Below, in pieces: positions 19,184-38,274 of a DNA stretch of 64,000 bases (its first letter is position 1; every line of letters starts with the position of its first letter). The notes beneath the pieces were generated by a model, which saw only the letters and a program-made list of their open reading frames with translations, made no database searches and was not told the DNA's origin. The translations under genes and the position numbers were made by a program. The stretch comes from an uncultured Latescibacterota bacterium (GTDB lineage Bacteria > Latescibacterota > UBA2968), in NCBI GenBank assembly GCA_951812545.1, contig OX638317.1:5843014-5907013 (forward strand), given 5' to 3'.

Positions 19184-19186
19184 CCC

Positions 19187-19393: not shown

Positions 19394-19427
19394 ATTGGGG
19401 ATAGTGGGGAATAACAGTGAGGGTATT

Positions 19428-20204: not shown

Positions 20205-20313
20205 TCCGCAGAAAAAAACGCGAATAATTTGAGCGTTTTTCGCAGATGAACGCAGATAAAAAAGAGGGGCTGGGGTGTGCGGGCTGACTACTGACTACTG
20301 ACTGCGAAATGTT

Positions 20314-20931: not shown

Positions 20932-21713
20932 AACAAGCCCTGACAATTGCGGGTTCGGATTCCGGTGGTGGCGCGGGCATTCAGGCGGATTTGAAAACAT
21001 TTCACGCCCATGGCGTGTTTGGCCTGTCTGCGATTACATCGGTTACTGCTCAGAATACGCAAGAGGTGCGTGCGGCTTGTGATTTGCCCGAAGAGATTAT
21101 TCGCGCTCAGATAAGTGCCGTGTTTGACGATTTTGAGATTTCTGCGGTCAAGACGGGTATGTTGTCTTCGCGTGCGATTGTAGAGGCTGTGGCCGATGAA
21201 CTGACAGTCCGCAATGGGCAACCGCTTGTGGTCGATCCGGTGATGATTTCGACGAGTGGGTTTTCGTTGCTCAAGGACGATGCTATACAATGTGTTACGG
21301 ATCGTTTGTTGCCGCTTGCTACGTTGGCGACGCCGAATATCCAAGAAGCAGAATTGTTGATTAGAAAAAAAATACAGACGCGAGAAGATGCCGGGTTCGC
21401 AGCGCGTAAAATTGCCGATTTGGGCGCGTGTGCCGTGCTGGTAAAGGGGGGACATTTGGAGGGGACAGCGGTGGATGTGTTGTGGGATGGGGTGTGTGAA
21501 ACGATTTTTGAAAGTGAACGCATAGATACCGAGAATACACACGGGACAGGTTGTACACTGGCATCGGCGATAGCTGCCAATTTTGCGCTGGGATACGGGT
21601 TGTGTGATGCAGTAGATAGGGCAAAAAATTATATTACCGAAGCTATCCGACATGGCTTAAATATTGGCAAGGGCAAAGGTCCTGTGAATCATTTTTATTT
21701 TTTTCGACTTTAA
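20922..21713 (+). CDS. thiD: bifunctional hydroxymethylpyrimidine / phosphomethylpyrimidine kinase
   Basis: 263 aa. ALTIAGSDSGGGAGIQADLKT, VKTGML and NTHGTGCTLASAIAA are typical of ThiD. Confidence 0.9.
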   Translation: MGMKQALTIAGSDSGGGAGIQADLKTFHAHGVFGLSAITSVTAQNTQEVRAACDLPEEIIRAQISAVFDDFEISAVKTGMLSSRAIVEAVADELTVRNGQPLVVDPVMISTSGFSLLKDDAIQCVTDRLLPLATLATPNIQEAELLIRKKIQTREDAGFAARKIADLGACAVLVKGGHLEGTAVDVLWDGVCETIFESERIDTENTHGTGCTLASAIAANFALGYGLCDAVDRAKNYITEAIRHGLNIGKGKGPVNHFYFFRL

Positions 21714-25933: not shown

Positions 25934-28736
25934 ACTGATATTGAACGGACAGACGGTATGTTTTGCTGAGGGCGAAACCTTGCTGGATATTGCATCCCGT
26001 CAGGGATTGGAAATTCCGACCCTGTGTCACGATCCGCGCTTAGAGCCCGCAGGTGCGTGTCGCTCTTGTCTGGTGGAAGTTGCCGGTGAGCGGTTGATGA
26101 CACCGGCCTGTGCGCGTGTGGCGCAAGCTGGTATGGTGGTGATGACCGAGAATGAGCGCATTGATCGGCACCGCCGAACTCTGATGGCTTTGTATATGAC
26201 CGATCATCCGCACGAACGCGAGGTATCGGAAGTCGGTTCGCCGGATTTATTGCTGGATATGGCCGCTGAGTTCGATGCCCCAATGGATTGGGGATGGATG
26301 GAGCCGATGCGGGGAGATAGAGAGGATCGCAATCTCTATGTGGATTTTAATCCCGATACCTGCATTGCGTGTGCGCGATGCGTGCGCTATTGCGAGGAAA
26401 TAGAAGGAGTTTCGGCTATTACCCTTGCGGGTAGAGGGTCGCATACGACGATTTCTACAGTGGAAGAAAAATCCTTGTTGGATACGACGTGCGAGTTGTG
26501 CGGTGGCTGTATTGATGTGTGTCCAACCGGCGCGATGAATGAAAAATTGCCACTGATGCGCGGGCAAAAACCCGAGCGCGAATTGGTAAAGGTGCGGTCA
26601 ACCTGCAACTTTTGTGGGGTGGGTTGTCAGCTCGATCTCAATGTGGATTTAGAAGGACGCGATGGTCAGGGGCAGATTGTAAAGGTAACGAGTCCACCGC
26701 CGGGCACGACGACCAATGATGGCAATTTGTGTGTCAAGGGACGCTTTGCCTATGATTTTGTCCACCATAACGACCGGTTGACGCAGCCACTTGTGCGGGA
26801 TGAGGATGGTGTATTGTATCCAACCACATGGGACGATGCGCTCGAAAGAGCAGCGGAGGGATTGTTGGGCGTTGCAGAGCGACACGGCGTAGATGCCCTG
26901 GGTTTTGTGAGTTCGTCTCGGTGTACGATGGAGGAAAATTTCCTCGTTCAGAAAATGGCGCGTGCACTGTTTCGGGCAAATCACGTCCATCAGTGTGCGG
27001 CTACGTGACACGCGCCAACGGTGGCCGGTCTGGTCGAAACATTTGGTGCAGGTGCTATGACAAATTCAATTGGCGAGATACGCGATGCTGATTTTCTGTT
27101 TGTGATTGGCAGCAATACGAGTGAAGCGCATCCGATTATTGCTATGGAAATGAAGCGCGCGGTTCGCAAAGGTGCGACCCTCGTTGTCGCCGATCCCAGG
27201 GCAATATGGATGACGTCTATTGCGAAAAAGCATTTGCAACTCAATCCGGGTACAGATGTGTGGTTGCTCAATGCAATGGCGCATGTTATTGTGGCAGAGG
27301 ATTTGATTGATCGCGAGTTTATCGAGAATCAAACGGAAAATTTTGAGCAGGTCAAAGCGACCGTTGCGTCTTATACACCCGAGAAGGCGGAGGAGATAAC
27401 GGGTATTTCTGCAGATGATATTCGCTGGACAGCGCGTCAGTATGCGATGACGGAAAAAGCGGGTATATACTATACGCTGGGCATTACGGAACACGCACAC
27501 GGTACGGATAATGTGTATGCGCTTGCCAATCTGGTTTTGATGACGGGGCATCTGGGCAAGCCAGCGACCGGGATGAATCCCCTGCGCGGACAGAATAATG
27601 TGCAGGGTGCGAATGACGCGGGTGCTACGCCGATGTTTTATCCGGGTTATCAGCGCGTGGATGATCCCGAAGTGCGGGCAAAGTACGAAAAGTCCTGGGG
27701 TGTTTCGCTGTCCCCTGTGCCGGGTCTGAATCTCAATGAGATGATGAAGACGGTGGGGGAACAGATGCGCGGCTTTTTTGTGATGGGTGAAGATATTGTG
27801 TTGTCCGAACCCAATGTGCTCGAGTTGGAAAAAGGGTTGAATAATGTTGATTTTATCGTGATGCAGGATGCGTTTATGAATGAGACGGCGCGTTTTGCCG
27901 ATGTGATTTTGCCCGCAGCCGTGTTTGCCGAGAAGGAGGGTACGTTCACCAATTCAGAGCGTCGCGTACAGAGGGTTCGCAAGGCGGTTGAACCTCCTGG
28001 GGAAGCGCTTCCAGACTGGGAAATTCTGGTTATGCTGGCGAATAAGATGGGCGCGAATTGGTCGTATAAAGATCCGGCGGAAGTTTATGCCGAGATGGTT
28101 AAAGACGTTCCTCAGTTTGCCGGTATTAGTCACGAAAAATTGGAAAAAATAGATGCAGGAGAAGAGAGCATAGCGGGCTTGCAGTGGCCGTGCCCCGATG
28201 CAGATCATCCAGGTACAAAATTTTTACACGAAGATGGGATTTTGCGTGGGAAGGGATTGTTTATGCCCGTGCATTATATCCCGCCGGCGGAATTGCCGGA
28301 TGAAGATTACGGTCTTTTTCTTTCAACGGGACGTACGCTATATCACTACAATGCCGCAACGCAGACGCGCCGGGAATCTGGACTCGATGCAAAACAGTCC
28401 GAAGCTTTTGTGGAGTTGCACCCGAGCGACGCGCGGAAACGGGGTGTTCATCACGGGGATATGGTGGAGGTGGCGACGCGGCGCGGGAGTGTGCAGTTGC
28501 GGGCTGTGATGTCGCGGCAAGTGCGCCCGGGATGTATCTGGATGCCATTGCATTTTGCCGAGGCACGCGCCAATGTGCTGACCAACGATGTGGGTGATGC
28601 AGTGACGGGGACAGCAGAGTACAAGGTGTGTGCGGCAGAGGTGCGATTGGTCGAGTCGATGCCTGGCAATGAAAGGTTTTTTCCGGGGAGCTATTACTAC
28701 GAGAAGGGACCGGGGTTGCAGCGCGTGGGTGATTGA
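25926..28736 (+). CDS. fdhA: formate dehydrogenase alpha subunit, selenocysteine-containing (TGA 27006-27008 read as Sec)
   Basis: ORFs 25896-27008 and 27021-28736 are in the same frame. The junction reads HQCAAT-U-HAPTVAGLVETFGAGAMTNS, the FDH active-site (Sec/Cys)-H-x-P-[ST]-V-x-GL motif. Has N-terminal 2Fe-2S and 4Fe-4S motifs, and MopB and molybdopterin-binding domains. Confidence 0.85.
27015..27046 (+). promoter_or_regulatory. candidate bacterial SECIS hairpin downstream of the UGA
   Basis: Starts 7 nt after the UGA. Lower stem CCAA/UUGG, upper stem GGCC/GGUC closing a GGUCU loop. The GGUCUG codons are at the same position as the apical loop of E. coli fdhF SECIS. The stem is short and partly wobble-paired. 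Confidence 0.4.
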
Positions 28737-28752
28737 GTCAGGGTATGTATGT

Positions 28753-28787
28753 AAAAAAAGCCGCGAGTTATGCTCGCGGCTTTTTTT
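28753..28787. terminator. bidirectional intrinsic terminator between fdhA and the decarboxylase gene
   Basis: AAAAAAA-GCCGCGAG-TTATG-CTCGCGGC-TTTTTTT. Confidence 0.75.
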
Positions 28788-28839
28788 ATTAGTTGGGGTG
28801 TCTCGCCCTCCTCACTAAAGATATGAACGATGCCTTCCT

Positions 28840-30309
28840 TCAGGATAACGCCTCGCGTCCGAATCGCTCGGCGGCCTCAAGGGTCTCGCGCACATCGTCC
28901 CATGTCGTGGTGTGGTTGACGATGCACAGCCGAAGTGAAAACTTTCCATGCAGGAGCGTCGAGGATATAAAGGCTTTGTCTTCCCAAAAGATGCGGGCGA
29001 GTATTGTCTTGTTGATTTCTTCGAGTTCTTCCTCTTCAATAGCTGTGTCAGCGGGGTTGATTCGGAAGCATACGACCCCCAGCGATGCGGGGTTCAACAT
29101 TTCCAGGGTTTGGCTTTCACGGACGTATGCCTCGGCGCGGGCAGCCAGTTCCATTCCCTTTGAGATGGCGCGGCGGAATGCGTCCATCCCGAAGGTCTGG
29201 ACGGACATCCAGATCTTAAGCGCGCGCACTGAGCGGCTCAGTTGCAGGCCGCGATCCGAGAAGTTCGGGTGGTTCGCACCCCATATTGTGTCCTGGAGAA
29301 TGTCGTGGTGAACGCCGAAGGCATTTTCAAGTGTGCCCAGGTCTTTGACCAGCAGGCAGCCGGCTTCATAAGGCTGGAAGAACCATTTGTGCGCGTCCAG
29401 GCCGATGGAATCAGCCCGTTCGATTCCGCGCAAGAGTTCTTTGCCCTGTTCGGTCACGACCGCGAAGCCGCCGTACGCAGCATCAACGTGTAGCCAGATA
29501 CCTTCTGTCTCGCAGTAGTCTGCCATGGCTTCGATTGGATCAATAGTTCCGGTACTGCTCGTTCCGGCGTTGGCGCACACTGCAATGGGGGTGAATCCTG
29601 CGGCACGGTCATCAGCTACAGTCTGTGCGAGTGCATCCATGTCCAGACGGAAGAGGTCGTCGCTTGGTATCAGGCGTATGCATTCTGGTCGAATGCCGAT
29701 GATTCTGGCTGCTCGTATGTGCGCGCTGTGGCTCTGGTCGCACATGTACACTGTGGCGCGTTCGGGATGCCCTGCGGCTTCTCGCGCTGCAACGAGGGCA
29801 TCGAGGCTGGCTGCTGAGCCTCCGCTCGTCAAAAGCCCGCCCGCGCTTTCTGGGTATCCGACCCATTGCCGCAACCAATCGATGACGACCAGTTCGAGTT
29901 GACTCGGACCGCTCCCGACCAGCCAGGTGCATGCGTTGACGTTGTATCCGGCGGCCATGAAATCGGCCAGTACCCCGGGCCAGGTGGGCGATGTTGGGAT
30001 GAAAGCGAAGCAGCGTGGATGGTCCAGTCGCATCGCAATCGGGAGGATTTCGCGCGCGGCTTGCTCAATGACTTCCATTGGGGGCCTTCCGTCTTTGGGT
30101 GGATCTTTCAGGAGTTGTTTTTCCAGCCCCTGCCTGAATTCTCCATCCCAGGCTTCTTCCCCGGGCAAGGTCTCGATTCGTTCCACCACAAGCTCCGCGG
30201 CTTTGCGCGCGAGGTCGAGCATGAGTTCGGGAGCCATCTGGAGGCTGTTATCCGCCCCGGCCGAAAGTTCTCGTTTTTCCTCTGATTGTCTTTCCATACC
30301 CCTTCTCAT
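28840..30309 (-). CDS. group II pyridoxal-dependent (aromatic amino acid-type) decarboxylase
   Basis: 489 aa. HVDAAYGGF and the PLP-lysine motif SIGLDAHKWF. ATG overlaps the stop of the upstream Cache gene (ATGA at 30306-30309). Confidence 0.85.
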   Translation of the reverse strand: MRRGMERQSEEKRELSAGADNSLQMAPELMLDLARKAAELVVERIETLPGEEAWDGEFRQGLEKQLLKDPPKDGRPPMEVIEQAAREILPIAMRLDHPRCFAFIPTSPTWPGVLADFMAAGYNVNACTWLVGSGPSQLELVVIDWLRQWVGYPESAGGLLTSGGSAASLDALVAAREAAGHPERATVYMCDQSHSAHIRAARIIGIRPECIRLIPSDDLFRLDMDALAQTVADDRAAGFTPIAVCANAGTSSTGTIDPIEAMADYCETEGIWLHVDAAYGGFAVVTEQGKELLRGIERADSIGLDAHKWFFQPYEAGCLLVKDLGTLENAFGVHHDILQDTIWGANHPNFSDRGLQLSRSVRALKIWMSVQTFGMDAFRRAISKGMELAARAEAYVRESQTLEMLNPASLGVVCFRINPADTAIEEEELEEINKTILARIFWEDKAFISSTLLHGKFSLRLCIVNHTTTWDDVRETLEAAERFGREALS

Positions 30310-31682
30310 TCTTTCACTTGCGGATAAAAGCCCGATAGCAGGGTTAATTCCATGCCGGTTTGTGGGTTAGTGATTGGGGTGGCATAACCTATTTTCGGTG
30401 AGCCAATGGGATCTCCGAGTAATTCACCATCTCCATTCTCATCTACCGCCGGATTATCGAAAGAATACTCGACAAAACCGCCACCTGCTGCGGCTGCAGC
30501 GATGAGTTCCTGGACGTATTTGACGCCGTTGGGATCTTCAAAGTTAATCAGGTTTTGTCCTTCGAGAGCTGAATTGGCAGCGTGAAACACTATGACACCC
30601 TCGCTGTTTAAAACTGCGAGGTAGATGGCTTCGTGTTTCCATCTGTCTCCCTCTTGCCTGAATTCTGCTGCGATGTCTTCGGAAAAGGGGAAGCTTTTCG
30701 CGTATTCTTTTGCGGATCCGACAAATGCTTTGAGGGTTTCTTTATCTACCACAGCACGAGCCGTGACTGGATAAAAGCCAGAGAGCAGGGTTAATTCCAT
30801 GCCGGTTTGTGAGTCAATGATCGGGATGGCGTAACTTATTTTTGGTGAGCCAATGGGATCTCCGACCAATTCGCCATCCCCATTCTCATCTATCGCTGGA
30901 TTATCGAAATAATACTCGACAAATCCGCCACCTGCAGCGGCTGCAGCGATGAGTTCCTGGGTATATTTGACGCCGTTGGGATCTTCAAGGTTAATCAGGT
31001 TTTGCCCTTCGAGGGCTGGATTGGCTGCGTGAAATAATATGACGCCATCGCTATTTCCAATTACGAGATAGATGGATTCGTGTTTCCATCTGTCTCCCTC
31101 TTGCCTGAATTCTGCTGCGATTTCCTCGGAGAGGGGAAAGCTTTTTGCGTATTCTTTTGCGGCCTCTACAAATGCTTTCAGAGTTTTCTTATCGCCGACA
31201 TCCCTGGCCGTGATCTGTTTTGTTGGCTCTTCCAGAGAGTATGAACCCTTCACCTGCGCTTTTCCACCAATAGGCAAATTGAGTATGACCTTATAGCCTG
31301 CGTTAATTGGTATGCTGGACCAGGAACCGATCTCGCTATCATCTTGCGAGGCACGCGCTTGATAATAACCATTGCCCGATGTGATTTCCACCAGTGCCTG
31401 ACCTTTTTCATCGGTTATGCCGGACCACTCATAGGCCGGAGCCTGTCCGGCAATAGAGCGCGAGAATTCTACGGTTGCACCGCTTACTGGTGTGCCATCA
31501 CTATGCAAATTGACCATGACGATAGCCTGTGCTTTGTGATGGGCTGCTGCCAATTTGCTCAGGGGACGTCCAATCTGTTCCTCTGTTCCGATTTCTGATT
31601 GTGTCACGCGCTCTCCGCCGCAGTTCCACATCAGTCCTGCAGCAAGGGCTATGACAACTATACTGCGAATGTGTCTCATCAT
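30306..31682 (-). CDS. secreted lipoprotein: beta-sandwich module + two tandem sCache_2-like domains
   Basis: 458 aa. Signal with Cys (AAGLMWNCGG). Module aa 52-140. Two 149-aa repeats with Cache signatures (GDRWKHE.IYL, FHAAN.ALEGQNLI, GGGFVEY.FDNP, SPKI.YA). No TM or output domain. Confidence 0.75.
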   Translation of the reverse strand: MMRHIRSIVVIALAAGLMWNCGGERVTQSEIGTEEQIGRPLSKLAAAHHKAQAIVMVNLHSDGTPVSGATVEFSRSIAGQAPAYEWSGITDEKGQALVEITSGNGYYQARASQDDSEIGSWSSIPINAGYKVILNLPIGGKAQVKGSYSLEEPTKQITARDVGDKKTLKAFVEAAKEYAKSFPLSEEIAAEFRQEGDRWKHESIYLVIGNSDGVILFHAANPALEGQNLINLEDPNGVKYTQELIAAAAAGGGFVEYYFDNPAIDENGDGELVGDPIGSPKISYAIPIIDSQTGMELTLLSGFYPVTARAVVDKETLKAFVGSAKEYAKSFPFSEDIAAEFRQEGDRWKHEAIYLAVLNSEGVIVFHAANSALEGQNLINFEDPNGVKYVQELIAAAAAGGGFVEYSFDNPAVDENGDGELLGDPIGSPKIGYATPITNPQTGMELTLLSGFYPQVKE

Positions 31683-31743
31683 CGGTCCTCCCTTTGTTGA
31701 GTTTTTTCAGGTTTTGCAAAAGTCTGCTATATGGTGCAAATGC

Positions 31744-31772
31744 AGTTTATGCTTAGAAACTCTATTTGTCAA
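31744..31772 (-). promoter_or_regulatory. putative sigma70-type promoter for 30306-31682
   Basis: Minus strand: TTGACA, 17 nt, TAAACT, about 60-90 nt upstream of the start codon. Confidence 0.35.
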
Positions 31773-31801
31773 ATTATGTTTGTGAGGTCCTTGAATCAAA
31801 T

Positions 31802-31834
31802 AAAAAGCCGCGAATTATGCCCGCGGCTTTTTTT
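31802..31834 (-). terminator. intrinsic terminator after 31852-33441
   Basis: AAAAA-GCCGCG-AATTATGC-CCGCGGC-TTTTTTT. Nearly the same sequence as the terminator at 28753-28787. Confidence 0.7.
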
Positions 31835-31851
31835 AATGTTGGATCTCAAGC

Positions 31852-33441
31852 TTACTTTACCAGAAGCAGCCGTCGGATGATGACGTCACTTGAATGTGCC
31901 AACCGGGAAATATAAACTCCACTGGAAACTTCTCGGCCAAACTCGTCTTTGCCATCCCACCTGACCCGATAATGACCAGGTGCCTGACTGTCCTGCACCA
32001 GGACGCGAACCTGTTGTCCCAATGTGTTGTATATCGTCAGACTCACATGCCCTGCTTCGGGTATCTGATAGGCGATTTGCGTAGATGGGTTAAAGGGGTT
32101 GGGTACATTGGGATATAGAACGAGGTCCTGCATAGCTGTCTGAGCGCGACTGCCTATGGGTAGAGAGAGTGTTTTTGGTTCTCCGCCGTTGATGGGAATG
32201 CTATTCCAGGTGGCGAGCGTGTTTCCGTCGGCATCCTTTGCACGGGCGAGGTAGTAGCCCGAGACATCGCTATCAGATTGGATGTTGATGGTGGCGCGTC
32301 CTTCGGCATCGGTGGTGCCTTGCCACTGGTATTCGGGTGCGCGACCAGCAATGGATTGAGAGAATTCGACTGTGGCATCTGCTACAGGCTGGTCGTTCTG
32401 AGTAAGGGTAATATTCACGATGGCGCGCTTGAGGTCTATATATAGCCCGGCGCCGACGACATACTCCCCGCCGCGGAATACAACGAGTTCGGCATAGCTC
32501 ACTTTGGGCGAACCGGTATCTTCATCGCCTACTATCGTCGGATCGTCGAAGTTATATTCGACAAAGCCGCCTCCCGCCTTTGCCACGTTAATGAGTTCTC
32601 GGAGGTACATGACTCCGTTTACATCCACCTTATTGATGTCGCTTGTTTGGAACTCCAGTGATCGATCGACACCGTGAAATAACACATAACCCCCGGTAGA
32701 GAACACAAAGAAATAGACGGAGCCTTGCCTATAGGGGCCGCCTTCTTCTCTGAAGAGATCCTGATGTTGCTGAAGCTGATCAAGCCCGATTTCCTCCACG
32801 GCTTGTAGATATCTGTGTCCCGTTCCGAGTACGAATGCCTTGAGGGTTTCCCGATCAACCACGTCGGCGGCCGTGACCTCGGGGGGGGGAATGAGGGACG
32901 GATCGAACGGCGTTGCACTGGCATGCGAAACGTCCTGGTAATAGCCGCCGATCAGGACCACCGCGGTTCCGGTTTGTCCGGAGACATAGTTGACGGCGTA
33001 GGCGACCTTGGGGCTGTCCTCATCTCCTTCCACCGCCGGATCATCCCAGTAATACTCGACGTGGCCTCCGCCCATGTTGGCTGCTGCAAGGAGGTTTTGC
33101 ACGACCTTATTGCCGCGGGCGTCTTCGATGTCGTACAGGTGCTTGCCGTTTACGCTGATGTCACCGGCATGATGAAACACCGTGCCATTTGGTAACATGA
33201 TGATGAGGTACGTGTTCCCGTGTTTCCAATCCCCCTCGACGCTGATGCTTTGGAGATACGGCGCGAGGTCGTTGGGATCGGTAAAAGCTTCTGCATGTGA
33301 TTTTGCGCCTTCGACAAAGGCTTTTAAGGTTTCCCTGTCCACCACTTCGCTGGCTGTTACCTCGGGCGATTGAGCTATGGCGGGTTGCACGGCAAAGAGG
33401 CTTGTCAGCCCCAGAATGATTACTGCTGTTATATGCTTCAA
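31852..33441 (-). CDS. secreted protein: two sCache_2-like domains + beta-sandwich module + T9SS type-A C-terminal sorting domain (paralogue A)
   Basis: 529 aa, TTG start, SPI-type signal (FAVQPAIAQ). Cache signatures GDWKHGNTYLI, GGGHVEYYWDDP and SPKVAYAV. CTD LYPNVPNPFNPSTQIAYQIP...SGVYISRL...LLLVK. Confidence 0.75.
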   Translation of the reverse strand: MKHITAVIILGLTSLFAVQPAIAQSPEVTASEVVDRETLKAFVEGAKSHAEAFTDPNDLAPYLQSISVEGDWKHGNTYLIIMLPNGTVFHHAGDISVNGKHLYDIEDARGNKVVQNLLAAANMGGGHVEYYWDDPAVEGDEDSPKVAYAVNYVSGQTGTAVVLIGGYYQDVSHASATPFDPSLIPPPEVTAADVVDRETLKAFVLGTGHRYLQAVEEIGLDQLQQHQDLFREEGGPYRQGSVYFFVFSTGGYVLFHGVDRSLEFQTSDINKVDVNGVMYLRELINVAKAGGGFVEYNFDDPTIVGDEDTGSPKVSYAELVVFRGGEYVVGAGLYIDLKRAIVNITLTQNDQPVADATVEFSQSIAGRAPEYQWQGTTDAEGRATINIQSDSDVSGYYLARAKDADGNTLATWNSIPINGGEPKTLSLPIGSRAQTAMQDLVLYPNVPNPFNPSTQIAYQIPEAGHVSLTIYNTLGQQVRVLVQDSQAPGHYRVRWDGKDEFGREVSSGVYISRLAHSSDVIIRRLLLVK

Positions 33442-33508
33442 AAGGATTCCCTCCTTTTTTGAGTTGTGATACTGTGAACCATAGCCTTTCTATGGCTGAA
33501 ACCGGCAA

Positions 33509-33537
33509 ATTTTAAGCTAAGAAGCCCTTTTTGTCAA
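33509..33537 (-). promoter_or_regulatory. putative sigma70-type promoter for 31852-33441
   Basis: Minus strand: TTGACA (33532-33537), 17 nt, TAAAAT (33509-33514). Confidence 0.4.
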
Positions 33538-33586
33538 ATATATTAGAAGTGCAGCTCCAAGGGTCTATGCCCCTAAAGGTGGTCTA

Positions 33587-33627
33587 ATAAAAACAACTGC
33601 TCTCTTGTTGGGACATGCCAAGAGAGC
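33587..33627 (-). terminator. putative intrinsic terminator after 33735-35336
   Basis: 9-bp stem GCTCTCTTG/CAAGAGAGC, followed on the minus strand by UUGUUUUUAUU. Confidence 0.5.
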
Positions 33628-33734
33628 GGTTGGGTGTAATAAAACAATGGGTTATTGATTGATTCACACTTCGCTGTAGTTCAACGGAAAAGCCACCGAT
33701 ACATTGTTTGGTCATATAATGTTGGATCTCAAAC

Positions 33735-35336
33735 TTATTTGACCAGAAGCAGCCGCCGGATGATGACGTCACTTGAATGTGCCAACCGGGAAATATAAAC
33801 TCCACTGGAAACTTCTCGGCCAAACTCGTCTTTGCCATCCCACCTGACCCGATAATGACCAGGTGCCTGACTGTCTTGCACCAAAACGCGAACCTGTTGT
33901 CCCAATGTGTTGTATATCGTCAGACTCACATGCCCTGCTTCGGGTATCTGATAGGCGATTTGCGTAGATGGGTTAAAGGGGTTGGGTACATTGGGATATA
34001 GAACGAGGTCCTGCATAGCTGTCTGAGCGCGACTGCCTATGGGTAGAGAGAGTGTTTTTGGTTCTCCGCCGTTGATGGGAATGCTATTCCAGGTGGCGAG
34101 CGTGTTTCCGTCGGCATCCTTTGCACGGGCGAGGTAGTAGCCCGAGACATCGCTATCAGATTGGATGTTGATGGTGGCGCGTCCTTCGGCATCGGTGGTG
34201 CCTTGCCACTGGTATTCGGGTGCGCGACCAGCAATGGATTGAGAGAATTCGACTGTGGCATCTGCTACAGGCTGGTCGTTCTGAGTGAGGGTAATATTCA
34301 CCATAACGCGCTTGAGGTCTATATATAGCCCGGCGCCGATGATATACTCCCCGCCAGGGAACACAACGAGTTCGGCATAGGTTACTTTGGGCGAGCCGGT
34401 GTCTTCGTCGCCTTCTACCGTCGGATCGTCCCAGTAGTACTCGACAAAGCCGCCTCCCGCCTTTGCCACGTTAATAATTTCCCGGATGAACTTAACCCCG
34501 TTTATATCCTCCCGGTCGAGGCTGCTCACAAACCTGTGCTCTACCGACCGATCGGCACCGTGAAAGTACACGTAACCATCCGTGGTTAAGGCAAAGAAAT
34601 AGACGGAGCCTTGCCTGTAGGGGCCGCCTTCTTCTCTGAAGAGATCCTGATTTTGCTGAAGAAGTACATCAAGCCCAACTTGCTCTATGGCTTTTATATA
34701 GCTGTCTACCGTTCCGAGTACGAATGCCTTGAGGGTTTCCCGATCAACCACGTCGGCGGCCGTGACCTCGGGAGGGGGAATGAGGGACGGATCTAACGGC
34801 GTTGCATTGGCATGCGAAACATTCTGGTAATAGCCGCCGATCAGGACCACCGCGGTTCCGGTTTGTCCGGAGACATAGTTGACGGCGTAGGCGATCTTGG
34901 GGCTGTCCTCATCTCCTTCCACCGCCGGATCATCCCAGTAATACTCGACGTGGCCTCCGCCCATGTTGGCTGCTGCAAGGAGGTTTTGCACGACCTTATT
35001 GCCGCGGGCGTCTTCGATGTCGTACAGGTGCTTGCCGTTTACGCTGATGTCACCGACATGATGAAACACCGTGCCATTTGGTAACATGATGATGAGGTAC
35101 GTGTTCCCGTGTTTCCAATCCCCCTCGACGCTGATGCTTTGGAGATACGGCGCGAGGTCGTTGGGATCGGTAACAGTTTCCGCATATGATTTTGCATATA
35201 ATACGAATGCCTCCAATGTCTCCGCATCTACCACCTCGCTGGCGGTTATCTTCTCAGGCGATTGAGCCACGGCGGGCTGCACTGCTGCAAAGAGACTTGC
35301 CAATCCCAAAAGGATTACTGCTGTTATATGCTTCAA
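33735..35336 (-). CDS. secreted protein: two sCache_2-like domains + beta-sandwich module + T9SS type-A C-terminal sorting domain (paralogue B)
   Basis: 533 aa, TTG start. Collinear with 31852-33441. The last roughly 190 aa are identical to paralogue A. Confidence 0.75.
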   Translation of the reverse strand: MKHITAVILLGLASLFAAVQPAVAQSPEKITASEVVDAETLEAFVLYAKSYAETVTDPNDLAPYLQSISVEGDWKHGNTYLIIMLPNGTVFHHVGDISVNGKHLYDIEDARGNKVVQNLLAAANMGGGHVEYYWDDPAVEGDEDSPKIAYAVNYVSGQTGTAVVLIGGYYQNVSHANATPLDPSLIPPPEVTAADVVDRETLKAFVLGTVDSYIKAIEQVGLDVLLQQNQDLFREEGGPYRQGSVYFFALTTDGYVYFHGADRSVEHRFVSSLDREDINGVKFIREIINVAKAGGGFVEYYWDDPTVEGDEDTGSPKVTYAELVVFPGGEYIIGAGLYIDLKRVMVNITLTQNDQPVADATVEFSQSIAGRAPEYQWQGTTDAEGRATINIQSDSDVSGYYLARAKDADGNTLATWNSIPINGGEPKTLSLPIGSRAQTAMQDLVLYPNVPNPFNPSTQIAYQIPEAGHVSLTIYNTLGQQVRVLVQDSQAPGHYRVRWDGKDEFGREVSSGVYISRLAHSSDVIIRRLLLVK

Positions 35337-35518
35337 GGTGATTTCTCCCCTTTTTGAGTTGTGATACTGTGAACTATACTTTTCTTATAAAAAATAAAAA
35401 TACGATTTTTCTTTTAAAAAAAGTAGATTTATTTATGCAAACGTTTATATTTTATTAATTTTACTTACGGTATAAGCAGAAGTGCATCCCCAAAGGTCTA
35501 TGCTTCAAAAGGCGGTCT

Positions 35519-35562
35519 AATAAAAATGAACCGCTCTCCTGGAGGGACGTGCAAGAGAGCGG
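35519..35562 (-). terminator. putative intrinsic terminator after 35607-37208
   Basis: 8-bp stem CCGCTCTC/GAGAGCGG with a U-rich tail on the minus strand. Homologous to the element at 33587-33627. Confidence 0.45.
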
Positions 35563-35606
35563 TTGGGTATAGTTAATGAAATGGCCTGTTGATCGGTTTT
35601 AGGACC

Positions 35607-37208
35607 TTACGGCGAGAATCGATAGACCACGGGCAATTTTGCGGGGTCTGTGATGTTTAAATCTGTGTGGTGGTAGATGTTGATGCGCCCGGTGCCACAG
35701 TCTCCAAATTCGTCGCAGTTGAGTGTGCCGACAAGGCTCTGAAAGCCGGATGTCGCGTGGAGTTGCCTGCGCAGCGCGGCGCGATCTACATACAATTTTC
35801 CGCCAGCTTCGCCTGCGACAATCTCAATGGCGTTGAGCAGTAGCGTTGTGGCGTCGTAAGAGTGCGCCCAGTATGGCGTGATTGGAAATCCGCCATACTG
35901 GGCTGAGTATGCGGCGAGCGCTTCATCTACGCTCTTGCCGGTTACAGCATTGACATTTGAGCCGAGATCTGCCTCTGGTCCTGCAGCGTAAACACCCTCT
36001 GACTGCGGTGTGGCGAGGAACTTCGAATCGAGGAGGGCTGCACCCGTGATGAGTGTCGCGTCTTTCAGGCTGGCGTGTTCCCTCGCCTGCTTGGCGAAAG
36101 GTATGCCTTCTATATCGAAGAGCGGGAAGAAGATGCCGTCTGGTGTAGCTGCTGCAAATTCTGTGAGGACGGCTGTCATATCTGTCTGGCCTTTCTCGAT
36201 CGTGGCGGTGGCTACGACCTCGCCGCCGATGGCGCTAAACGCATTGCCAAATGCGATGGTGAGGCCCATGGTGTACGGGTCGCCATCGTCGAGGGCCGCC
36301 ATGCGCCGCAGGCCCAATTCATTGTATGTGAAGTCGGCGACTGCCCGCGCCTGATAGAGGTCGTTGACCGCAACGCGAAAATAGCCGGGATGATAGTTGG
36401 GACTCGCGTTGCCGGAGAGGTCGGACGTAAGTGCTGGCGAGGTGTTAGATGGCGCGATCATTACCAGACCAGCTTCGCTGATCACCGGTGAGGCCGCCAC
36501 TGCCGCACCCGAGCAGTTCGTGCCGATGACGCCGAGTACTTGTGGGTCGGCGACAATCTGCTCTGCACCCATGCGTCCGCCATCCGGTCCACACCCGCCG
36601 TCTATTGGCTCGCCGAGTTCGACCTCGTGACCGTGGATCATGCCGAAGTCTTGTACGGCTAACTCAACGGCGTTCCGCGACGGCACACCAAGCGATGTCG
36701 CGATTGTATGCGCGAGCAACGAACGGATTTGCACGGCTTCGCCCTCGCTCACCATGACTAAGACATCCATGGACGAACTGGTTACCTGTGCTTGTCCATC
36801 GATGGGCAAGTCCATGACCTCGTAGCCCGCGTTGATTGGAATGCTGGACCAGGAACCGATTTCGACCCCGTCCTGCGAGGCACGCGCCTGGTAATAACCA
36901 TTGCCCGATGTGATTTCCACCCATGCCTGACCATTGTCATCGATCATGCCCGACCATTGATAGTTGGGGGCCTGTCCTGCAATGGAGCGTGCTAATGCGA
37001 TAGTTGCACCGCTCACTGGTGTGCCATCACGATGCACAGTGACCATGACGACGGCCTTTGTCTCGTGATGGGCTACTGCCAATTTGCTCAGGGGACGGCC
37101 AATCTGTTCGTTTTCAACTCTTGACTGTGTCACGCGCTCACCGCCGCAGTTCCACATCAGCCCTGAGGCAAGAGCTATGACAATAATACTGCGAATGTGC
37201 TTCAACAT
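35607..37208 (-). CDS. lipoprotein: beta-sandwich module + LivK-like (type I, Peripla_BP_6) solute-binding domain
   Basis: Start moved to ATG 37208 (MLKHIRSIIVIALASGLMWNCGG) behind GGAGGA. The N-terminal 140 aa are paralogous to 30306-31682. The rest resembles branched-chain amino acid ABC binding proteins (VIGTNCSGAAVAASPV, MIAPSNTSPALT). Confidence 0.75.
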   Translation of the reverse strand: MLKHIRSIIVIALASGLMWNCGGERVTQSRVENEQIGRPLSKLAVAHHETKAVVMVTVHRDGTPVSGATIALARSIAGQAPNYQWSGMIDDNGQAWVEITSGNGYYQARASQDGVEIGSWSSIPINAGYEVMDLPIDGQAQVTSSSMDVLVMVSEGEAVQIRSLLAHTIATSLGVPSRNAVELAVQDFGMIHGHEVELGEPIDGGCGPDGGRMGAEQIVADPQVLGVIGTNCSGAAVAASPVISEAGLVMIAPSNTSPALTSDLSGNASPNYHPGYFRVAVNDLYQARAVADFTYNELGLRRMAALDDGDPYTMGLTIAFGNAFSAIGGEVVATATIEKGQTDMTAVLTEFAAATPDGIFFPLFDIEGIPFAKQAREHASLKDATLITGAALLDSKFLATPQSEGVYAAGPEADLGSNVNAVTGKSVDEALAAYSAQYGGFPITPYWAHSYDATTLLLNAIEIVAGEAGGKLYVDRAALRRQLHATSGFQSLVGTLNCDEFGDCGTGRINIYHHTDLNITDPAKLPVVYRFSP

Positions 37209-37251
37209 GGAATCCTCCATAGGGTAAAGAGTTGTGTGAAAATACTGTCGA

Positions 37252-38274
37252 TCAAGCAAGTGTCAGGGCTTCTCTGGCAGCTTGGGCTTGGGGTGAGTTG
37301 GGATCGCGTTGTATGGCGCGGTTCATAGCAATATGTGCGCGTTTATCTCCTGCTTTAGCCAGTTCGAGTGCTTCTGAAAAACCTTTCTCCGAATAGCTGA
37401 GGTCGCGGGGTATGATGCGGTTGTCCTGATTTTCCCAGTAGTATTTGAGGTCGTCGGTTTTCCAGTCTTTGTACACATCTTTCCATGTGAGATTGTTGAA
37501 AATGTTCAGATGGGGTTCGAGCATGTGCTCAGATAGGGTATCGCCGAGTTTTTGATAGCGGTTGTCGAGGGAGACGCGAAGGCGATCTTCGGTGAGATTT
37601 GGCAGGGCCTGGTGTACTGTGAGTGCGGGGAAGATAAGGGTATCGCCGATTTCGTAGTTGGTGCTGTGCCATTGGCCTTCCAATTCGTCGGTGTGGATGC
37701 ACAGGCTGCCCGCGCCCAGAGAGAAGTGGTGTTCCATGACTGCATTGATTTTGTGAGAGCCGGGCAGTACGGCGAGACCACCCAGTTCAATGGGACAGTC
37801 GCCAACAGGTGCCCAGCAGGTATAGGTGTCAAAGTTGCCCTGAAAGTGTACGAAGTCCTGGTGAATCGGTGTGGTGTGCGCCGTGTATTTTGGAAACCAC
37901 AGGCGAGCGACTTTGTGCGGATGAGGGAAAACAGGGCCGTCCATCACTTTTTCGAGCAGGTCGAGTACTTCTGGTTCATGGGCGATGCGGTGAAAGACTT
38001 CGAGTTTGTACACTTCGTGATATACGTCGGTGTATTCGGGGTCGCCTTCGGTACACTGCCTGGATATATCGGCGATGCCATCTATGGGATCGGTTCCCTC
38101 GACGAGCCAGGGTGTCATTCTGTTGAGCATTTGTCGCCGCAAATCCCAGAGTTTGTCCGGGTTCTGCAATTTGCGGAAGAAGAGATACCCCTCTTCACGG
38201 ATGCGCCGCCGCAACTCTTCCGAATCGTTGATCGCGTCGTTGGATACGCGCAATTCTGCAATCTGGTCAGTCAT
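37252..38274 (-). CDS. phytanoyl-CoA dioxygenase (PhyH) family Fe(II)/2-oxoglutarate oxygenase
   Basis: 340 aa. PhyH-like layout with HQDFVHF (His-x-Asp), a later His, and a helical C-terminal tail. Confidence 0.75.
   Translation of the reverse strand: MTDQIAELRVSNDAINDSEELRRRIREEGYLFFRKLQNPDKLWDLRRQMLNRMTPWLVEGTDPIDGIADISRQCTEGDPEYTDVYHEVYKLEVFHRIAHEPEVLDLLEKVMDGPVFPHPHKVARLWFPKYTAHTTPIHQDFVHFQGNFDTYTCWAPVGDCPIELGGLAVLPGSHKINAVMEHHFSLGAGSLCIHTDELEGQWHSTNYEIGDTLIFPALTVHQALPNLTEDRLRVSLDNRYQKLGDTLSEHMLEPHLNIFNNLTWKDVYKDWKTDDLKYYWENQDNRIIPRDLSYSEKGFSEALELAKAGDKRAHIAMNRAIQRDPNSPQAQAAREALTLA

What the first reader, a model, noticed from the sequence alone, without database searches (positions are those of the whole stretch)
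28840..38274. Six-gene cluster of stand-alone, surface-targeted Cache and solute-binding proteins coupled to a PLP decarboxylase: candidate undescribed ligand-capture system
All six genes are on the minus strand.
1. PhyH-family dioxygenase (37252-38274).
2. Lipoprotein made of the beta-sandwich module plus a LivK-like type I binding domain (35607-37208). No ABC permease or ATPase genes are nearby.
3. and 4. Two paralogues with a signal peptide, two sCache_2-like domains, the beta-sandwich module and a T9SS type-A sorting domain (33735-35336 and 31852-33441).
5. Lipoprotein made of the beta-sandwich module plus two sCache_2-like domains (30306-31682).
6. Group II PLP decarboxylase (28840-30309), whose ATG overlaps the stop of gene 5.

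Cache domains are established as extracytoplasmic sensor modules of chemoreceptors, histidine kinases and cyclases. Here six Cache modules occur with no TM helix or signalling output. They are instead routed to the cell surface by lipidation or T9SS.

My inference is a surface-displayed small-molecule capture or sensing array. The LivK-like fold and the decarboxylase make amino acids, amines or carboxylates plausible ligands. I am not aware of a described system of this kind.
Basis: partly seen in the sequence, partly recalled or inferred. Interest (0 to 1): 0.7.

Follow-up and report, generated by a model that had tools for sequence, protein, structure and literature searches.

The report
Surface-displayed Cache binding proteins, decarboxylase-linked
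A probable sponge-symbiont bacterium (Latescibacterota) encodes small-molecule "sensor" (Cache) domains with no signalling part, exported or lipid-anchored instead, and linked in three phyla to one highly conserved vitamin-B6 enzyme, which looks like an undescribed way of capturing a host-derived acid.

Summary
All six minus-strand genes exist at the stated coordinates with the stated domains.

They form four transcription units rather than one operon: [PhyH–SBP], [Cache-CTD], [Cache-CTD], [Cache lipoprotein–PLP enzyme].

The Cache proteins belong to a narrow clade, 73 representatives among 1.84 billion. No member carries a signalling output. Partner modules are T9SS C-terminal domains, autotransporter β-barrels, Ig spacers or lipoboxes. 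Both modules keep the sCache_2 carboxylate-binding residues (Tyr/His/Tyr/Lys), invariant in module 2, plus a family-specific acidic loop.

Genome hits are MAGs of at least six phyla. Many carry sponge-microbiome bin names.

A 74–92% identical PLP enzyme sits next to and co-oriented with Cache genes in Latescibacterota, Acidobacteriota and Gemmatimonadota. In the last it precedes a 2147-aa seven-Cache autotransporter. The lipoprotein SBP recurs in 12 loci and never has ABC partners. The PhyH orthologue is confined to close relatives.

A sister clade with the same architecture lies inside cobalamin-riboswitch uptake operons, which argues for capture rather than signalling.

The ligand, surface exposure, T9SS presence and enzyme product (amine or aldehyde) remain untested. 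I rate it a new variant of a known kind, interest about 0.7.

The parts
37252..38274 (-). g1: PhyH-family Fe(II)/2-oxoglutarate dioxygenase, cytoplasmic (no signal peptide). It is the first gene of unit 1.
   Evidence: PF05721, 54.5 bits. The nearest solved structure is PtlH hydroxylase 2RDN, 50.7 bits. HxD...H is readable in the sequence (HQD ... TVHQ). The orthologue occurs only in L001, L002, L007 and L008.
35607..37208 (-). g2: lipoprotein made of a signal peptide with lipobox (LMWNC), a beta-sandwich, and a LivK-like type I solute-binding domain. No ABC partner is present.
   Evidence: Peripla_BP_6, 115.6 bits. PDB relatives are LivJ-like 4N0Q and 3TD9, and aromatic-acid binders. Orthologues (570-595 bits) occur in 12 loci, carry canonical lipoboxes and have no adjacent permease.
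35519..35565 (-). Intrinsic terminator after g2.
   Evidence: A 13-bp GC-rich hairpin followed by a T-run, -20.3 kcal/mol.
33735..35336 (-). g3: secreted protein made of a Sec signal (AVA|QS), two sCache_2 modules, an Ig-like sandwich and a T9SS type-A C-terminal domain. It is monocistronic.
   Evidence: AF2 pLDDT is 85-96 over the Cache modules. Foldseek matches 4EXO, 4K08, 5G4Y, PorU and PorZ. Y246, H259, Y300 and K317 are invariant.
33586..33632 (-). Intrinsic terminator after g3.
   Evidence: Hairpin followed by a T-run, -24 kcal/mol for the folded stretch.
31852..33441 (-). g4: paralogue of g3 (89% identical) with the same architecture and its own promoter-like site (33537-33509) and leader.
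31802..31835 (-). Intrinsic terminator after g4. It is nearly identical to the one after g6.
30306..31682 (-). g5: lipoprotein made of a lipobox, a beta-sandwich and two sCache_2 modules. The two modules are 83% identical to each other (a recent duplication). Each carries a longer insert, DENGDGELxGDPIGSPK, which resembles a Ca-binding loop.
   Evidence: The modules are most similar (50-55%) to the 187-aa single-Cache paralogue that flanks the PLP enzyme in Latescibacterota class-A loci.
28840..30309 (-). g6: cytoplasmic group II PLP-dependent decarboxylase-like enzyme, translationally coupled to g5 through an ATGA overlap.
   Evidence: PF00282, 228 bits. The best PDB match is the R. gnavus Trp decarboxylase 4OBU at 284 bits, then plant Tyr/Trp decarboxylases and aldehyde synthases. 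H194, D276 and K308 are invariant, and no Tyr occurs in the catalytic loop. More than 120 clusters are 74-92% identical across phyla.
28752..28788 (.). Bidirectional terminator between g6 and the convergent formate dehydrogenase gene.

Best explanation
The cluster encodes a set of extracytoplasmic binding proteins with no signalling part, serving a cytoplasmic PLP enzyme.

- g3 and g4 are exported. They are either released or fixed on the cell surface through a T9SS-type C-terminal domain.
- g5 and the LivK-like g2 are lipid-anchored.
- Each Cache module keeps the sCache_2 carboxylate pocket. An acidic loop next to it could contact a cationic group or a metal.

I propose that these proteins capture a host-derived amino-acid-like carboxylate from the sponge matrix and hand it inward. 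The most likely ligand is an aromatic or hydrophobic amino acid or a derivative. Outer- and inner-membrane transporters encoded elsewhere would import it. g6 then decarboxylates it in the cytoplasm, to an amine or, given the missing loop Tyr, possibly to an aldehyde. In this lineage the PhyH dioxygenase modifies the substrate or the product.

Shown: the architectures, the fold, conservation of the pocket residues, absence of output domains, gene linkage across phyla, and a paralogous clade inside B12-riboswitch uptake operons.

Inferred: ligand identity, direction of flow, surface exposure, and hand-over to transporters.
For: 1. No member of the clade has an output domain. Partner domains are T9SS CTDs (8 + 5 members), autotransporter beta-domains (5), Big_2, PKD and a dockerin.
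2. The PscD carboxylate tetrad Y90/H103/Y143/K156 and the W92/W145 clamp (PMC5062169) align to g3 Y246/H259/Y300/K317 and F248/W302. In 83 homologues the tetrad and F248 are 100% invariant and the W302 position is aromatic in 81. In module 1, Y80/H93/Y132/W134 are 93-99% conserved.
3. A homologue of g6 (600-926 bits) is adjacent to and co-oriented with Cache genes in 14 of 81 loci. These include Latescibacterota (L018, L020, L023, L045, L047, L068), Acidobacteriota (L061, L073, L076, with overlapping genes) and Gemmatimonadota (L038, in front of a seven-Cache autotransporter). The g5 modules are closest to the single-Cache gene that flanks the enzyme in those loci.
4. SBP orthologues occur in 12 loci. 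In L068 the order is Cache, PLP enzyme, SBP, contiguous.
5. Clade B has the same Cache-sandwich-CTD architecture at 41-46% identity. Its gene lies between cbiB and btuD/btuC-like genes, behind a cobalamin riboswitch, in all 6 loci tested. A TonB receptor and a BtuF-like protein are in the same operon. This shows a family member in a riboswitch-controlled uptake unit.
6. g5 and g6 are translationally coupled.
Against: - No transporter is encoded in the window cluster or next to any SBP orthologue.
- g3 and g4 are separate transcription units.
- The PLP enzyme also occurs without Cache neighbours, in a Nitrospira MAG, an alphaproteobacterial MAG and two unnamed large contigs. The dependence is therefore one-sided.
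- Known sCache_2 pockets hold only C2-C4 acids (PMC5062169), so a whole aromatic amino acid may not fit.
- T9SS machinery is not shown for this genome.
- The lipoproteins could be periplasmic.
- Nothing has been tested biochemically.
Confidence: 0.45

Rival explanations
1. Co-receptor sensing. The free or anchored Cache proteins and the orphan SBP bind ligand and then dock onto a membrane sensor (histidine kinase, chemoreceptor or sigma-54 system) encoded elsewhere. This would resemble LuxP-LuxQ or SBP-dependent chemoreceptors. The cluster would then be a sensory front end that regulates, among other things, the PLP enzyme.
For: - Cache domains are overwhelmingly sensory; more than 90% are fused to signalling modules (PMC12889525).
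- The SBP never has an ABC partner in 12 loci, as expected for signalling SBPs.
- Sigma-54 activators lie within 10 kb in L005 and L006.
Against: - No sensor or regulator gene is conserved next to the family in any context class.
- Multicopy arrays, with up to 7-15 modules in one autotransporter or giant protein, and release or display outside the outer membrane fit poorly with docking onto an inner-membrane sensor.
- The clade-B member sits in an uptake and salvage operon, not beside a regulator.
Confidence: 0.15
2. Host interface or sequestration. The displayed Cache arrays bind a host or community metabolite to hold it at the cell surface, to quench a host signal, or to mediate recognition by sponge cells. 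The link to the PLP enzyme would reflect a shared role in manipulating host aromatic-amine or acid signalling.
For: - The family occurs in MAGs with sponge-microbiome bin names from at least six phyla, with identities of 40-60% that suggest niche-driven horizontal spread.
- Cache Pfams were reported as enriched in sponge Thaumarchaeota and proposed as host-recognition surface proteins (PMC7848895).
- Sponge symbiont aromatic decarboxylases have been proposed to make trace amines for the host (PMC10570526).
- Tryptamine, tyramine and phenethylamine drive sponge contractions (bioRxiv 10.64898/2026.02.14.704838).
- High-valency display on autotransporters resembles adhesins.
Against: - The strictly conserved small-carboxylate pocket argues for a metabolite ligand, not a host macromolecule.
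- The clade-B gene in a B12 uptake operon is a nutritional context.
- The sponge origin of many of the MAGs is inferred from names only.
Confidence: 0.2
3. Product handling. g6 makes an acid-derived product: an arylacetaldehyde that is then oxidised to an arylacetate, or another carboxylate. This product is exported, and the Cache proteins bind the product rather than the substrate, for retention, recapture or delivery.
For: - The g6 family has no Tyr in the catalytic loop. The aligned column is F/I/V/L, as in the aldehyde synthase 6JRL.
- Its neighbours in other phyla are an aldehyde dehydrogenase (Nitrospira) or an aldo-keto reductase plus a GFO/IDH/MocA oxidoreductase (Acidobacteriota).
- The Cache pocket binds carboxylates.
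Against: - The closest solved relative, the R. gnavus Trp decarboxylase, has Thr at the aligned loop column, so the loop rule may not transfer.
- There is no exporter in the cluster.
- There is no aldehyde dehydrogenase in the window cluster.
Confidence: 0.1
4. No functional link. The genes are neighbours because a variable region rich in mobile elements accumulated secreted paralogues beside an independently useful, horizontally mobile PLP enzyme.
For: - An IS4 element lies next to the cluster.
- There are four transcription units.
- The PLP enzyme is found in unrelated contexts.
- The neighbours of the Cache genes vary between lineages.
Against: - Adjacency with overlap or short gaps recurs in three phyla, with different Cache architectures.
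- g5 and g6 overlap by ATGA.
- The chance of a given single-copy-type gene falling within 10 kb of a marker in 14 of 81 loci is negligible.
Confidence: 0.07

Closest known systems
sCache_2 ligand-binding domains of chemoreceptors and kinases (PscD 5G4Y, McpP, Adeh_3718 4K08, V. parahaemolyticus 4EXO/2QHK, TlpB 3UB6, MctS, CtpM)
   Same: Same Pfam family and fold (TM 0.67-0.75). Same Tyr/His/Tyr/Lys carboxylate-binding residues and aromatic clamp. Extracytoplasmic location.
   Different: There is no flanking transmembrane helix and no HAMP, MCP or kinase output. Modules occur in tandem or as long arrays fused to display modules. A family-specific acidic insert (GDEDxGSPK, or DENGDGE... in g5) precedes the ligand-binding Lys.
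Stand-alone sCache_heme proteins (Tll0287-like; PMC12889525)
   Same: Cache domains that occur without signalling modules, an organisation called atypical for the superfamily.
   Different: Those carry a CXXCH c-type haem insert and are proposed redox proteins. The present family has no CXXCH, keeps the carboxylate pocket, and is coupled to secretion or display domains and to a PLP enzyme.
Surface capture proteins that feed TonB-dependent transporters (BtuG/BtuH of Bacteroides B12 loci, SusD-like proteins, haemophores). This comparison is from general knowledge.
   Same: The proposed role is the same: an exposed binding protein that captures a scarce ligand for uptake. The clade-B paralogue sits in a cobalamin-riboswitch operon with a TonB receptor and BtuF/C/D-like genes.
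   Different: The fold is unrelated (Cache, not beta-propeller or TPR). The pocket is built for small carboxylates. No TonB receptor is linked in the window cluster. The function is untested.
LivJ/LivK-type (Peripla_BP_6) substrate-binding proteins of ABC importers
   Same: g2 matches the family (115.6 bits) and is a lipoprotein, like many Gram-negative and FCB-group SBPs.
   Different: It has an N-terminal beta-sandwich copied from g5. No permease or ATPase genes lie beside it or beside any of its 12 orthologues.
Group II aromatic L-amino-acid decarboxylases and aldehyde synthases (R. gnavus TrpDC 4OBU, plant TyDC/TDC 6EEM/6EEW, insect DHPAA synthase 6JRL)
   Same: Same fold family. The PLP-Lys, the His stacking on PLP and the Asp are conserved. 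These are the best-scoring solved relatives.
   Different: The top hit scores only 284 bits. g6 reaches the cut-off of no NCBIfam equivalog model (DABA decarboxylase 219 against 900). No Tyr occurs in the catalytic loop. The enzyme is unusually conserved (74-92%) across phyla.
T9SS type-A CTD cargo proteins of Bacteroidota
   Same: N-terminal Sec signal, an Ig-like spacer, a C-terminal roughly 80-aa beta-sandwich that passes TIGR04183, and structural similarity to the PorU and PorZ C-terminal regions.
   Different: The host phylum is Latescibacterota, where the machinery has not been studied. The passenger is a sensor-type binding domain, not an enzyme or adhesin. The Pfam CTD model scores below its cut-off.

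Membership tests
sCache_2 (PF17200), Cache superfamily | Match to the family model above the curated cut-off | tested here: met
   g3 82.1, g4 80.3 and g5 101.5 bits against a cut-off of 25, with two stretches each.
sCache_2 (PF17200), Cache superfamily | Cache fold: N-terminal helix followed by a PAS-like beta-sheet | tested here: met
   The AF2 model has pLDDT 85-96 over both modules. Foldseek gives 4EXO TM 0.75 at rmsd 2.9 A, and also matches 4K08, 5G4Y and TlpB.
sCache_2 (PF17200), Cache superfamily | Carboxylate-binding residues (PscD Y90, H103, Y143, K156) | tested here: met
   These align to g3 Y246, H259, Y300 and K317, which are invariant in 83 of 83 homologues. In module 1, Y80, H93 and Y132 are 93-98% conserved. 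The check is by alignment only; no ligand was tested.
Cache-containing signal transducers (MCP, histidine kinase, cyclase) | Transmembrane anchoring and a cytoplasmic output module | tested here: not met
   No output domain in g3, g4 or g5, in the 120 nearest clusters, or in the 73 exhaustive-search representatives.
T9SS type-A sorting-domain cargo (TIGR04183 / PF18962) | C-terminal sorting domain at the extreme C-terminus, plus an N-terminal Sec signal | tested here: met
   TIGR04183 scores 30.6 and 30.5 bits against a cut-off of 23, over residues 451-530 of 533. FlgD_ig scores 34.5 and 38.1 against 27. Pfam PF18962 scores only about 20 against 27. The signal peptide MKHITAVILLGLASLFAAVQPAVA|QS was read from the sequence. 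Foldseek matches PorU and PorZ.
T9SS type-A sorting-domain cargo (TIGR04183 / PF18962) | T9SS core machinery (PorK/L/M/N, Sov/SprA, PorU/V) in the same genome | not testable with these tools
   None was found among the window ORFs scanned. Indirect support: many different proteins in related loci carry the same CTD (39 loci). The literature lists possible T9SS in other FCB phyla, but not Latescibacterota (PMC11285876).
ABC-transporter type I substrate-binding protein (Peripla_BP_6, LivK-like) | Match to the family model and an extracytoplasmic anchor | tested here: met
   115.6 bits against a cut-off of 31.7. LivJ-like PDB relatives. Lipobox present, and canonical in orthologues.
ABC-transporter type I substrate-binding protein (Peripla_BP_6, LivK-like) | Cognate permease and ATPase genes in the same locus | tested here: not met
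   None was found among the window ORFs scanned, and none recurs beside the 12 orthologues.
Group II PLP-dependent amino-acid decarboxylase (PF00282) | Family match and the catalytic Lys, His and Asp | tested here: met
   228.2 bits. K308 in DAHKW, H194 in QSHS and D276 in HVDAAYGG are invariant in 31 homologues.
Group II PLP-dependent amino-acid decarboxylase (PF00282) | Catalytic-loop Tyr, which gives true decarboxylase rather than aldehyde-synthase chemistry | tested here: not met
   The aligned column is F350, and F/I/V/L across the family. No Tyr occurs at positions 330-355. 6EEI and 6LIU have Tyr there and 6JRL has Phe, but the R. gnavus enzyme has Thr, so the meaning is uncertain.
L-2,4-diaminobutyrate decarboxylase RhbB (NF052646), the best NCBIfam hit | Score at or above the equivalog cut-off | tested here: not met
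   219 bits against a cut-off of 900.
PhyH Fe(II)/2OG dioxygenase (PF05721) | Family match and the HxD...H iron triad | tested here: met
   54.5 bits against a cut-off of 22. H-Q-D and a distal TVHQ His are readable in the translation. Nearest structure is PtlH 2RDN.
Decarboxylase/antiporter proton-motive modules (GadB/GadC, TyrDC/TyrP type) | Precursor/product antiporter gene next to the decarboxylase | tested here: not met
   No APC or other antiporter lies in the cluster or in the 14 Cache-linked loci. An MFS gene follows the enzyme only in one alphaproteobacterial locus, and it is unrelated to the class-A MFS.

The most novel reading that the evidence does not exclude
Cache domains have a second, non-sensory use as surface-displayed nutrient- or signal-capture modules. 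One clade has spread horizontally among sponge symbionts of at least six phyla, mounted on whatever display machinery the recipient has (T9SS CTD, autotransporter or lipid anchor). In that reading it captures a host-derived aromatic amino-acid-like acid for a shared, highly conserved PLP enzyme. The product of that enzyme (a trace amine or an arylacetaldehyde/arylacetate) would feed back on the nerveless host's monoamine-type signalling. A sister clade would do the same job for a cobamide-related ligand under B12-riboswitch control.
Probability: 0.15. Interest if true: 0.9.

Novelty: new variant of a known kind. Interest (0 to 1): 0.7.

Why it matters
Cache is the largest family of bacterial extracellular sensor domains, and it is treated as an input module of signal transducers. 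A clade that has entirely given up signalling outputs would extend what Cache domains are understood to do. This clade is instead exported on three different display systems, and it is genetically tied either to a metabolic enzyme or to a riboswitch-controlled uptake operon.

It would also add a new class of candidates to the short list of surface capture proteins, alongside SusD, BtuG and haemophores.

The family appears to be concentrated in sponge symbionts of many phyla, together with an unusually conserved aromatic-decarboxylase-like enzyme. It therefore gives a concrete, testable handle on which host metabolites these uncultured symbionts take up. It also bears on the current question of whether symbionts contribute to monoamine signalling in sponges.

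Tried and rejected
- **Exact look-up of g5:** not on record in the assembly collection. I used the 98%-identical g3 homologue P0001 instead.
- **Riboswitch or leader upstream of g3, g4 or g5:** Rfam at gathering and at E ≤ 1 gives only terminator-like weak hits. The conserved intergenic blocks are a terminator, a promoter-like site and an RBS leader inherited through the g3/g4 duplication.
- **PhyH g1 as part of a conserved core:** rejected. The orthologue is present only in four close relatives. Other PhyH subfamilies do recur in class-A loci.
- **A conserved transporter:**
  - The class-A MFS is unrelated to the MFS that follows the enzyme in the alphaproteobacterial locus.
  - The alphaproteobacterial Peripla_BP_6 is unrelated to g2.
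  - The genes downstream of the SBP in L068 are leucine and arginine biosynthesis genes.
- **DABA decarboxylase (siderophore or ectoine-type) reading of g6:** 219 against a cut-off of 900 bits, and lower than the aromatic decarboxylases in the PDB.
- **Halogenase reading of g1:** the weak TIGR01762 hit has E = 0.033, and HxD is intact, so g1 is a hydroxylase or dioxygenase type.
- **Accession numbers of the OZ/OX MAGs in the literature:** none found. Sponge origin rests on bin names (SB06xx, IRC, COS, RHO) that fit the sponge species named in PMC8163846, and on sponge genome notes that report Latescibacteria MAGs.

Full report
**1.

Pfam and NCBIfam assign these domains:

| Gene | Coordinates | Domains |
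|---|---|---|
| g1 | 37252-38274 | PhyH |
| g2 | 35607-37208 | Peripla_BP_6 (LivK-like) behind an N-terminal beta-sandwich |
| g3 | 33735-35336 | two sCache_2 stretches, an Ig-like sandwich, a C-terminal domain |
| g4 | 31852-33441 | as g3 (89% identical) |
| g5 | 30306-31682 | sandwich plus two sCache_2 |
| g6 | 28840-30309 | Pyridoxal_deC |

- The C-terminal domain of g3 and g4 passes NCBIfam's T9SS type-A model (30.6 and 30.5 against 23 bits) and Pfam FlgD_ig. It does not pass Pfam Por_Secre_tail.
- The sandwich module is shared. The first 145 residues of g2, signal peptide included, are 74% identical to the first 147 of g5.
- The g5 stop and the g6 start overlap as ATGA.
- An AlphaFold model of g3, built on 83 homologues, is confident over both Cache modules. 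It superposes on sCache_2 sensor domains (4EXO TM 0.75; also 4K08, 5G4Y, TlpB). The C-terminal part matches PorU and PorZ.
- The N-termini read as a Sec signal in g3 and g4 (AVA|QS) and as a lipobox in g2 and g5 (LMWN-C-GGE). That lipobox is unusual, but SBP orthologues in other loci have canonical ones.

**2. Corrections to the anatomy**

Hairpin terminators follow g2, g3, g4 and g6. The cluster is therefore four transcription units: [g1-g2], [g3], [g4], [g5-g6].

An IS4 transposase (38427-39551) lies just upstream. It is missing at that site in the close relatives L001, L002, L007 and L008, which otherwise keep the same cluster, complete in L001 and L007, between an RND pump gene and, where the locus reaches that far (L001, L007), the formate dehydrogenase genes.

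The ORFs I scanned in the rest of the window encode housekeeping, thiamine, FDH and Cus-like efflux functions. None is an ABC importer, a TonB receptor or a T9SS core component.

**3. Who carries it**

The nearest genome records are Candidatus Latescibacterota MAGs; L007 (OZ242320.1) is 88% identical. A pattern-plus-tblastn scan of one genome per GTDB species returned 75 loci. These come from Latescibacterota, Gemmatimonadota/Longimicrobiales, Acidobacteriota, Rhodothermales, Gammaproteobacteria, Caldilineaceae and Aminicenantes.

Many bins are named SB06xx, IRC, COS or RHO. Those prefixes fit the sponge species sampled in PMC8163846. Sponge genome notes report Latescibacteria MAGs. The sponge origin of the remaining MAGs is an inference from names.

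**4. A narrow clade without outputs**

An exhaustive phmmer search with the tandem module, against 1.84 billion cluster representatives, finds only 73 proteins at E ≤ 1e-30 and 342 at E ≤ 1e-10. I scanned those 73 against Pfam:

- None has a kinase, MCP, GGDEF/EAL, cyclase or HAMP domain.
- The only partner domains are T9SS CTDs (8 Por_Secre_tail, 5 FlgD_ig), autotransporter beta-domains (5), Big_2, PKD, a dockerin and an OMP barrel.
- The precomputed domains of the 120 nearest clusters say the same.
- Some members are giants, one of 2142 aa and one with 15 matched stretches.

The literature states that more than 90% of Cache domains are fused to signalling modules and calls stand-alone ones 'highly unusual'; the paper making that statement describes stand-alone haem-binding Cache domains (PMC12889525). 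No paper in the library holds both 'Cache domain' and 'type IX secretion'. The same binding clade is mounted on three unrelated display routes.

**5. The pocket**

In PscD, propionate is held by Tyr90, His103, Tyr143 and Lys156, between Trp92 and Trp145 (PMC5062169).

- HMMER alignments to 5G4Y and 4EXO place these on g3 Y246, H259, Y300 and K317, and on F248 and W302.
- In 83 homologues the four hydrogen-bonding residues and F248 are 100% invariant.
- The module-1 equivalents are 93-99% conserved.
- Between the third and fourth of these positions the family has an invariant acidic insert, G-D-E-D-x-G-S-P-K, four residues longer than in the solved domains.
- In g5 the insert is longer still (DENGDGELxGDP) and resembles an EF-hand or dockerin calcium loop. 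That is read from the sequence and is untested.

The predicted ligand is therefore a carboxylate, possibly one that also carries a cationic group or is bound through a metal. A plain amine is unlikely.

**6. Conserved linkage**

I translated all ORFs of the 81 loci and searched them with the window's domains.

- A close homologue of g6 (600-926 bits) lies next to and co-oriented with Cache genes in 14 loci.
- In Latescibacterota class-A loci it is embedded in arrays of 2-5 Cache genes.
- In Acidobacteriota (L061, L073, L076) the order is aldo-keto reductase, GFO/IDH/MocA oxidoreductase, PLP enzyme, then 3-4 Cache genes. In L061 the enzyme and first Cache ORFs overlap by 16 nt.
- In Gemmatimonadota L038 it precedes a 2147-aa protein with seven sCache_2 stretches, Big_2 and an autotransporter beta-domain.
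- The g5 modules are a recent internal duplication (83% identical; the L007 orthologue has one module). They are most similar to the 187-aa single-Cache gene that flanks the enzyme in class-A loci.
- The SBP core recurs at 570-595 bits in 12 loci. It is adjacent to Cache genes in L019 and L027, and the order in L068 is Cache, enzyme, SBP. It never has ABC genes beside it.
- The g1 orthologue is restricted to close relatives. Two other PhyH subfamilies, a Pec_lyase-like protein, 496-aa thioredoxin-like proteins, a creatininase and a sulfatase recur in class-A loci.

**7. A second context that speaks to function**

Clade B has the same Cache-sandwich-CTD architecture at 41-46% identity to g3. 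Its gene always lies between cbiB and btuD/btuC-like genes. The same co-oriented operon contains BtuF-like, TonB-receptor, unknown 413-aa and cbiZ genes. Gaps around the Cache gene are 33-85 nt in L028 and L024. All six loci tested start with a cobalamin riboswitch of 111-124 bits.

A family member is thus part of a riboswitch-controlled uptake and salvage unit. That fits an accessory capture protein, analogous in role to BtuG, and does not fit a signal transducer.

**8. The enzyme**

- g6's best solved relatives are aromatic amino-acid decarboxylases and aldehyde synthases: R. gnavus TrpDC at 284 bits, then plant TyDC/TDC and DOPA decarboxylase. DABA, Glu and CSAD types score lower.
- It reaches no NCBIfam equivalog cut-off.
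- It is very conserved. More than 120 clusters are 74-92% identical, with source names from Gemmatimonadota, Nitrospira and Alphaproteobacteria.
- H194, D276 and K308 are invariant.
- The catalytic loop contains no Tyr in any of 31 homologues. The column that holds the catalytic Tyr in 6EEI and 6LIU, and Phe in the aldehyde synthase 6JRL, is F/I/V/L here.
- Where the enzyme occurs without Cache genes, its neighbours vary. In Nitrospira it is an aldehyde dehydrogenase. In an alphaproteobacterium they are an MFS, SBPs and Rieske oxygenases. In a 7.8-Mb contig (L087) they are PhyH, sulfatase and ABC genes.
- Together with the reductase and oxidoreductase neighbours in Acidobacteriota, this leaves open that the product is an aldehyde rather than an amine. 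The R. gnavus enzyme has Thr at that column, so the rule may not transfer.

**9. Mechanism proposed**

The proposal is extracytoplasmic capture of a host-derived amino-acid-like carboxylate. g3 and g4 act outside the outer membrane, and g5 and g2 act as lipoproteins. Import is by transporters encoded elsewhere. g6 decarboxylates the compound in the cytoplasm, and a PhyH step is added in this lineage.

- Shown: items 1-8 above.
- Inferred: the ligand, the direction of flow and the hand-over to transporters.

I give this about 0.45. The rivals are co-receptor sensing (0.15), a host-interface or sequestration role (0.2), product handling (0.1) and accidental neighbourhood (0.07). The host-interface reading draws on reports of Cache enrichment in sponge archaea and of symbiont aromatic decarboxylases (PMC7848895, PMC10570526).

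**10. Verdict**

Its central inference, a display or capture array without signalling output that has not been described, is supported by comparative evidence. The evidence narrows it in three ways: the conserved core is Cache plus PLP enzyme, with the SBP often present; the ligand is a carboxylate; and capture is more likely than sensing.

It uses known domain families in a new architecture and role. I therefore file it as a new variant of a known kind, with interest 0.7.

Noticed in passing
L024, L026, L028-L037, L080 (e.g. L028 2362-13739): A paralogous Cache-sandwich-CTD gene is embedded in a cobalamin-riboswitch operon. The gene order is BtuF-like, TonB receptor, unknown 413-aa protein, CbiZ, CbiB, Cache, ABC ATPase, FecCD permease. 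This is a candidate new accessory protein of corrinoid uptake or salvage.
   Followed up: partly
L038 9941-16384; protein P0259: Poly-Cache autotransporters of about 2140 aa, with seven sCache_2 stretches and a type-V autotransporter beta-domain; Big_2 also matched in L038. In L038 the gene follows the PLP enzyme directly.
   Followed up: partly
window 25896-28736 (TGA at 27006-27008): The two ORFs called for the formate dehydrogenase alpha subunit are joined by an in-frame TGA in the motif CAAT-U-HAPTVAGL. This is probably a selenocysteine codon. The gene caller of the related contig L001 also split the gene.
   Followed up: partly
window 17710-17799 (-) and 17896-17991 (+): Two divergent TPP riboswitches lie back to back. 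One is in front of thiC (15978-17699, minus strand). The other is in front of thiO/thiG/thiD-like genes (18044-21713, plus strand).
   Followed up: partly
window 38427-39551 (-): An IS4-family transposase (NF033591, 256 bits) is inserted between the PhyH gene and the RND pump gene. It is absent at this site in L001, L002, L007 and L008, so it is a recent insertion.
   Followed up: yes
window 1-64000: GC skew is strongly positive (+0.2 to +0.3) where genes are on the plus strand and near zero across the minus-strand cluster. This means a G-rich coding strand throughout.
   Followed up: no
L009, L018, L020, L023, L045 and other class-A loci (C-termini of the 187/354-aa Cache genes): The short Cache paralogues without a CTD end in a conserved tail, ...(Q/P)SWGQLKSxF-COOH. 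This may be another sorting or anchoring signal. It is unexplained.
   Followed up: no
window 28840-30309 and homologues P0139-P0258: The PLP enzyme is 74-92% identical across MAGs that sources name as Gemmatimonadota, Nitrospira and Alphaproteobacteria. This is far more conserved than the Cache proteins and suggests recent horizontal spread. The family lacks the catalytic-loop Tyr.
   Followed up: partly
window 22335-24323 (+): A 662-aa ORF with an N-terminal hydrophobic, Cys-containing (lipobox-like) start combines SLBB, Tcp10_C repeats and a CAP (cysteine-rich secretory protein) domain. I did not examine the meaning of these domains.
   Followed up: no
window 55669-56724 (+); L003, L005, L087: There are further PhyH-family dioxygenase genes in the window and near Cache or PLP-enzyme genes in relatives. 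The family appears expanded in these genomes.
   Followed up: no
L048-L075 (class C, e.g. L049 9965-12535): Longimicrobiales, Rhodothermales and Gammaproteobacteria carry proteins of about 820-860 aa (longest ORFs up to about 970 aa). Each has a signal peptide, two sCache_2 modules and a C-terminal half of about 480 aa with no Pfam match. In L049 and L058 this half ends in an aromatic residue (…SMRW, …SMHW), so it may be an unrecognised beta-barrel anchor.
   Followed up: no
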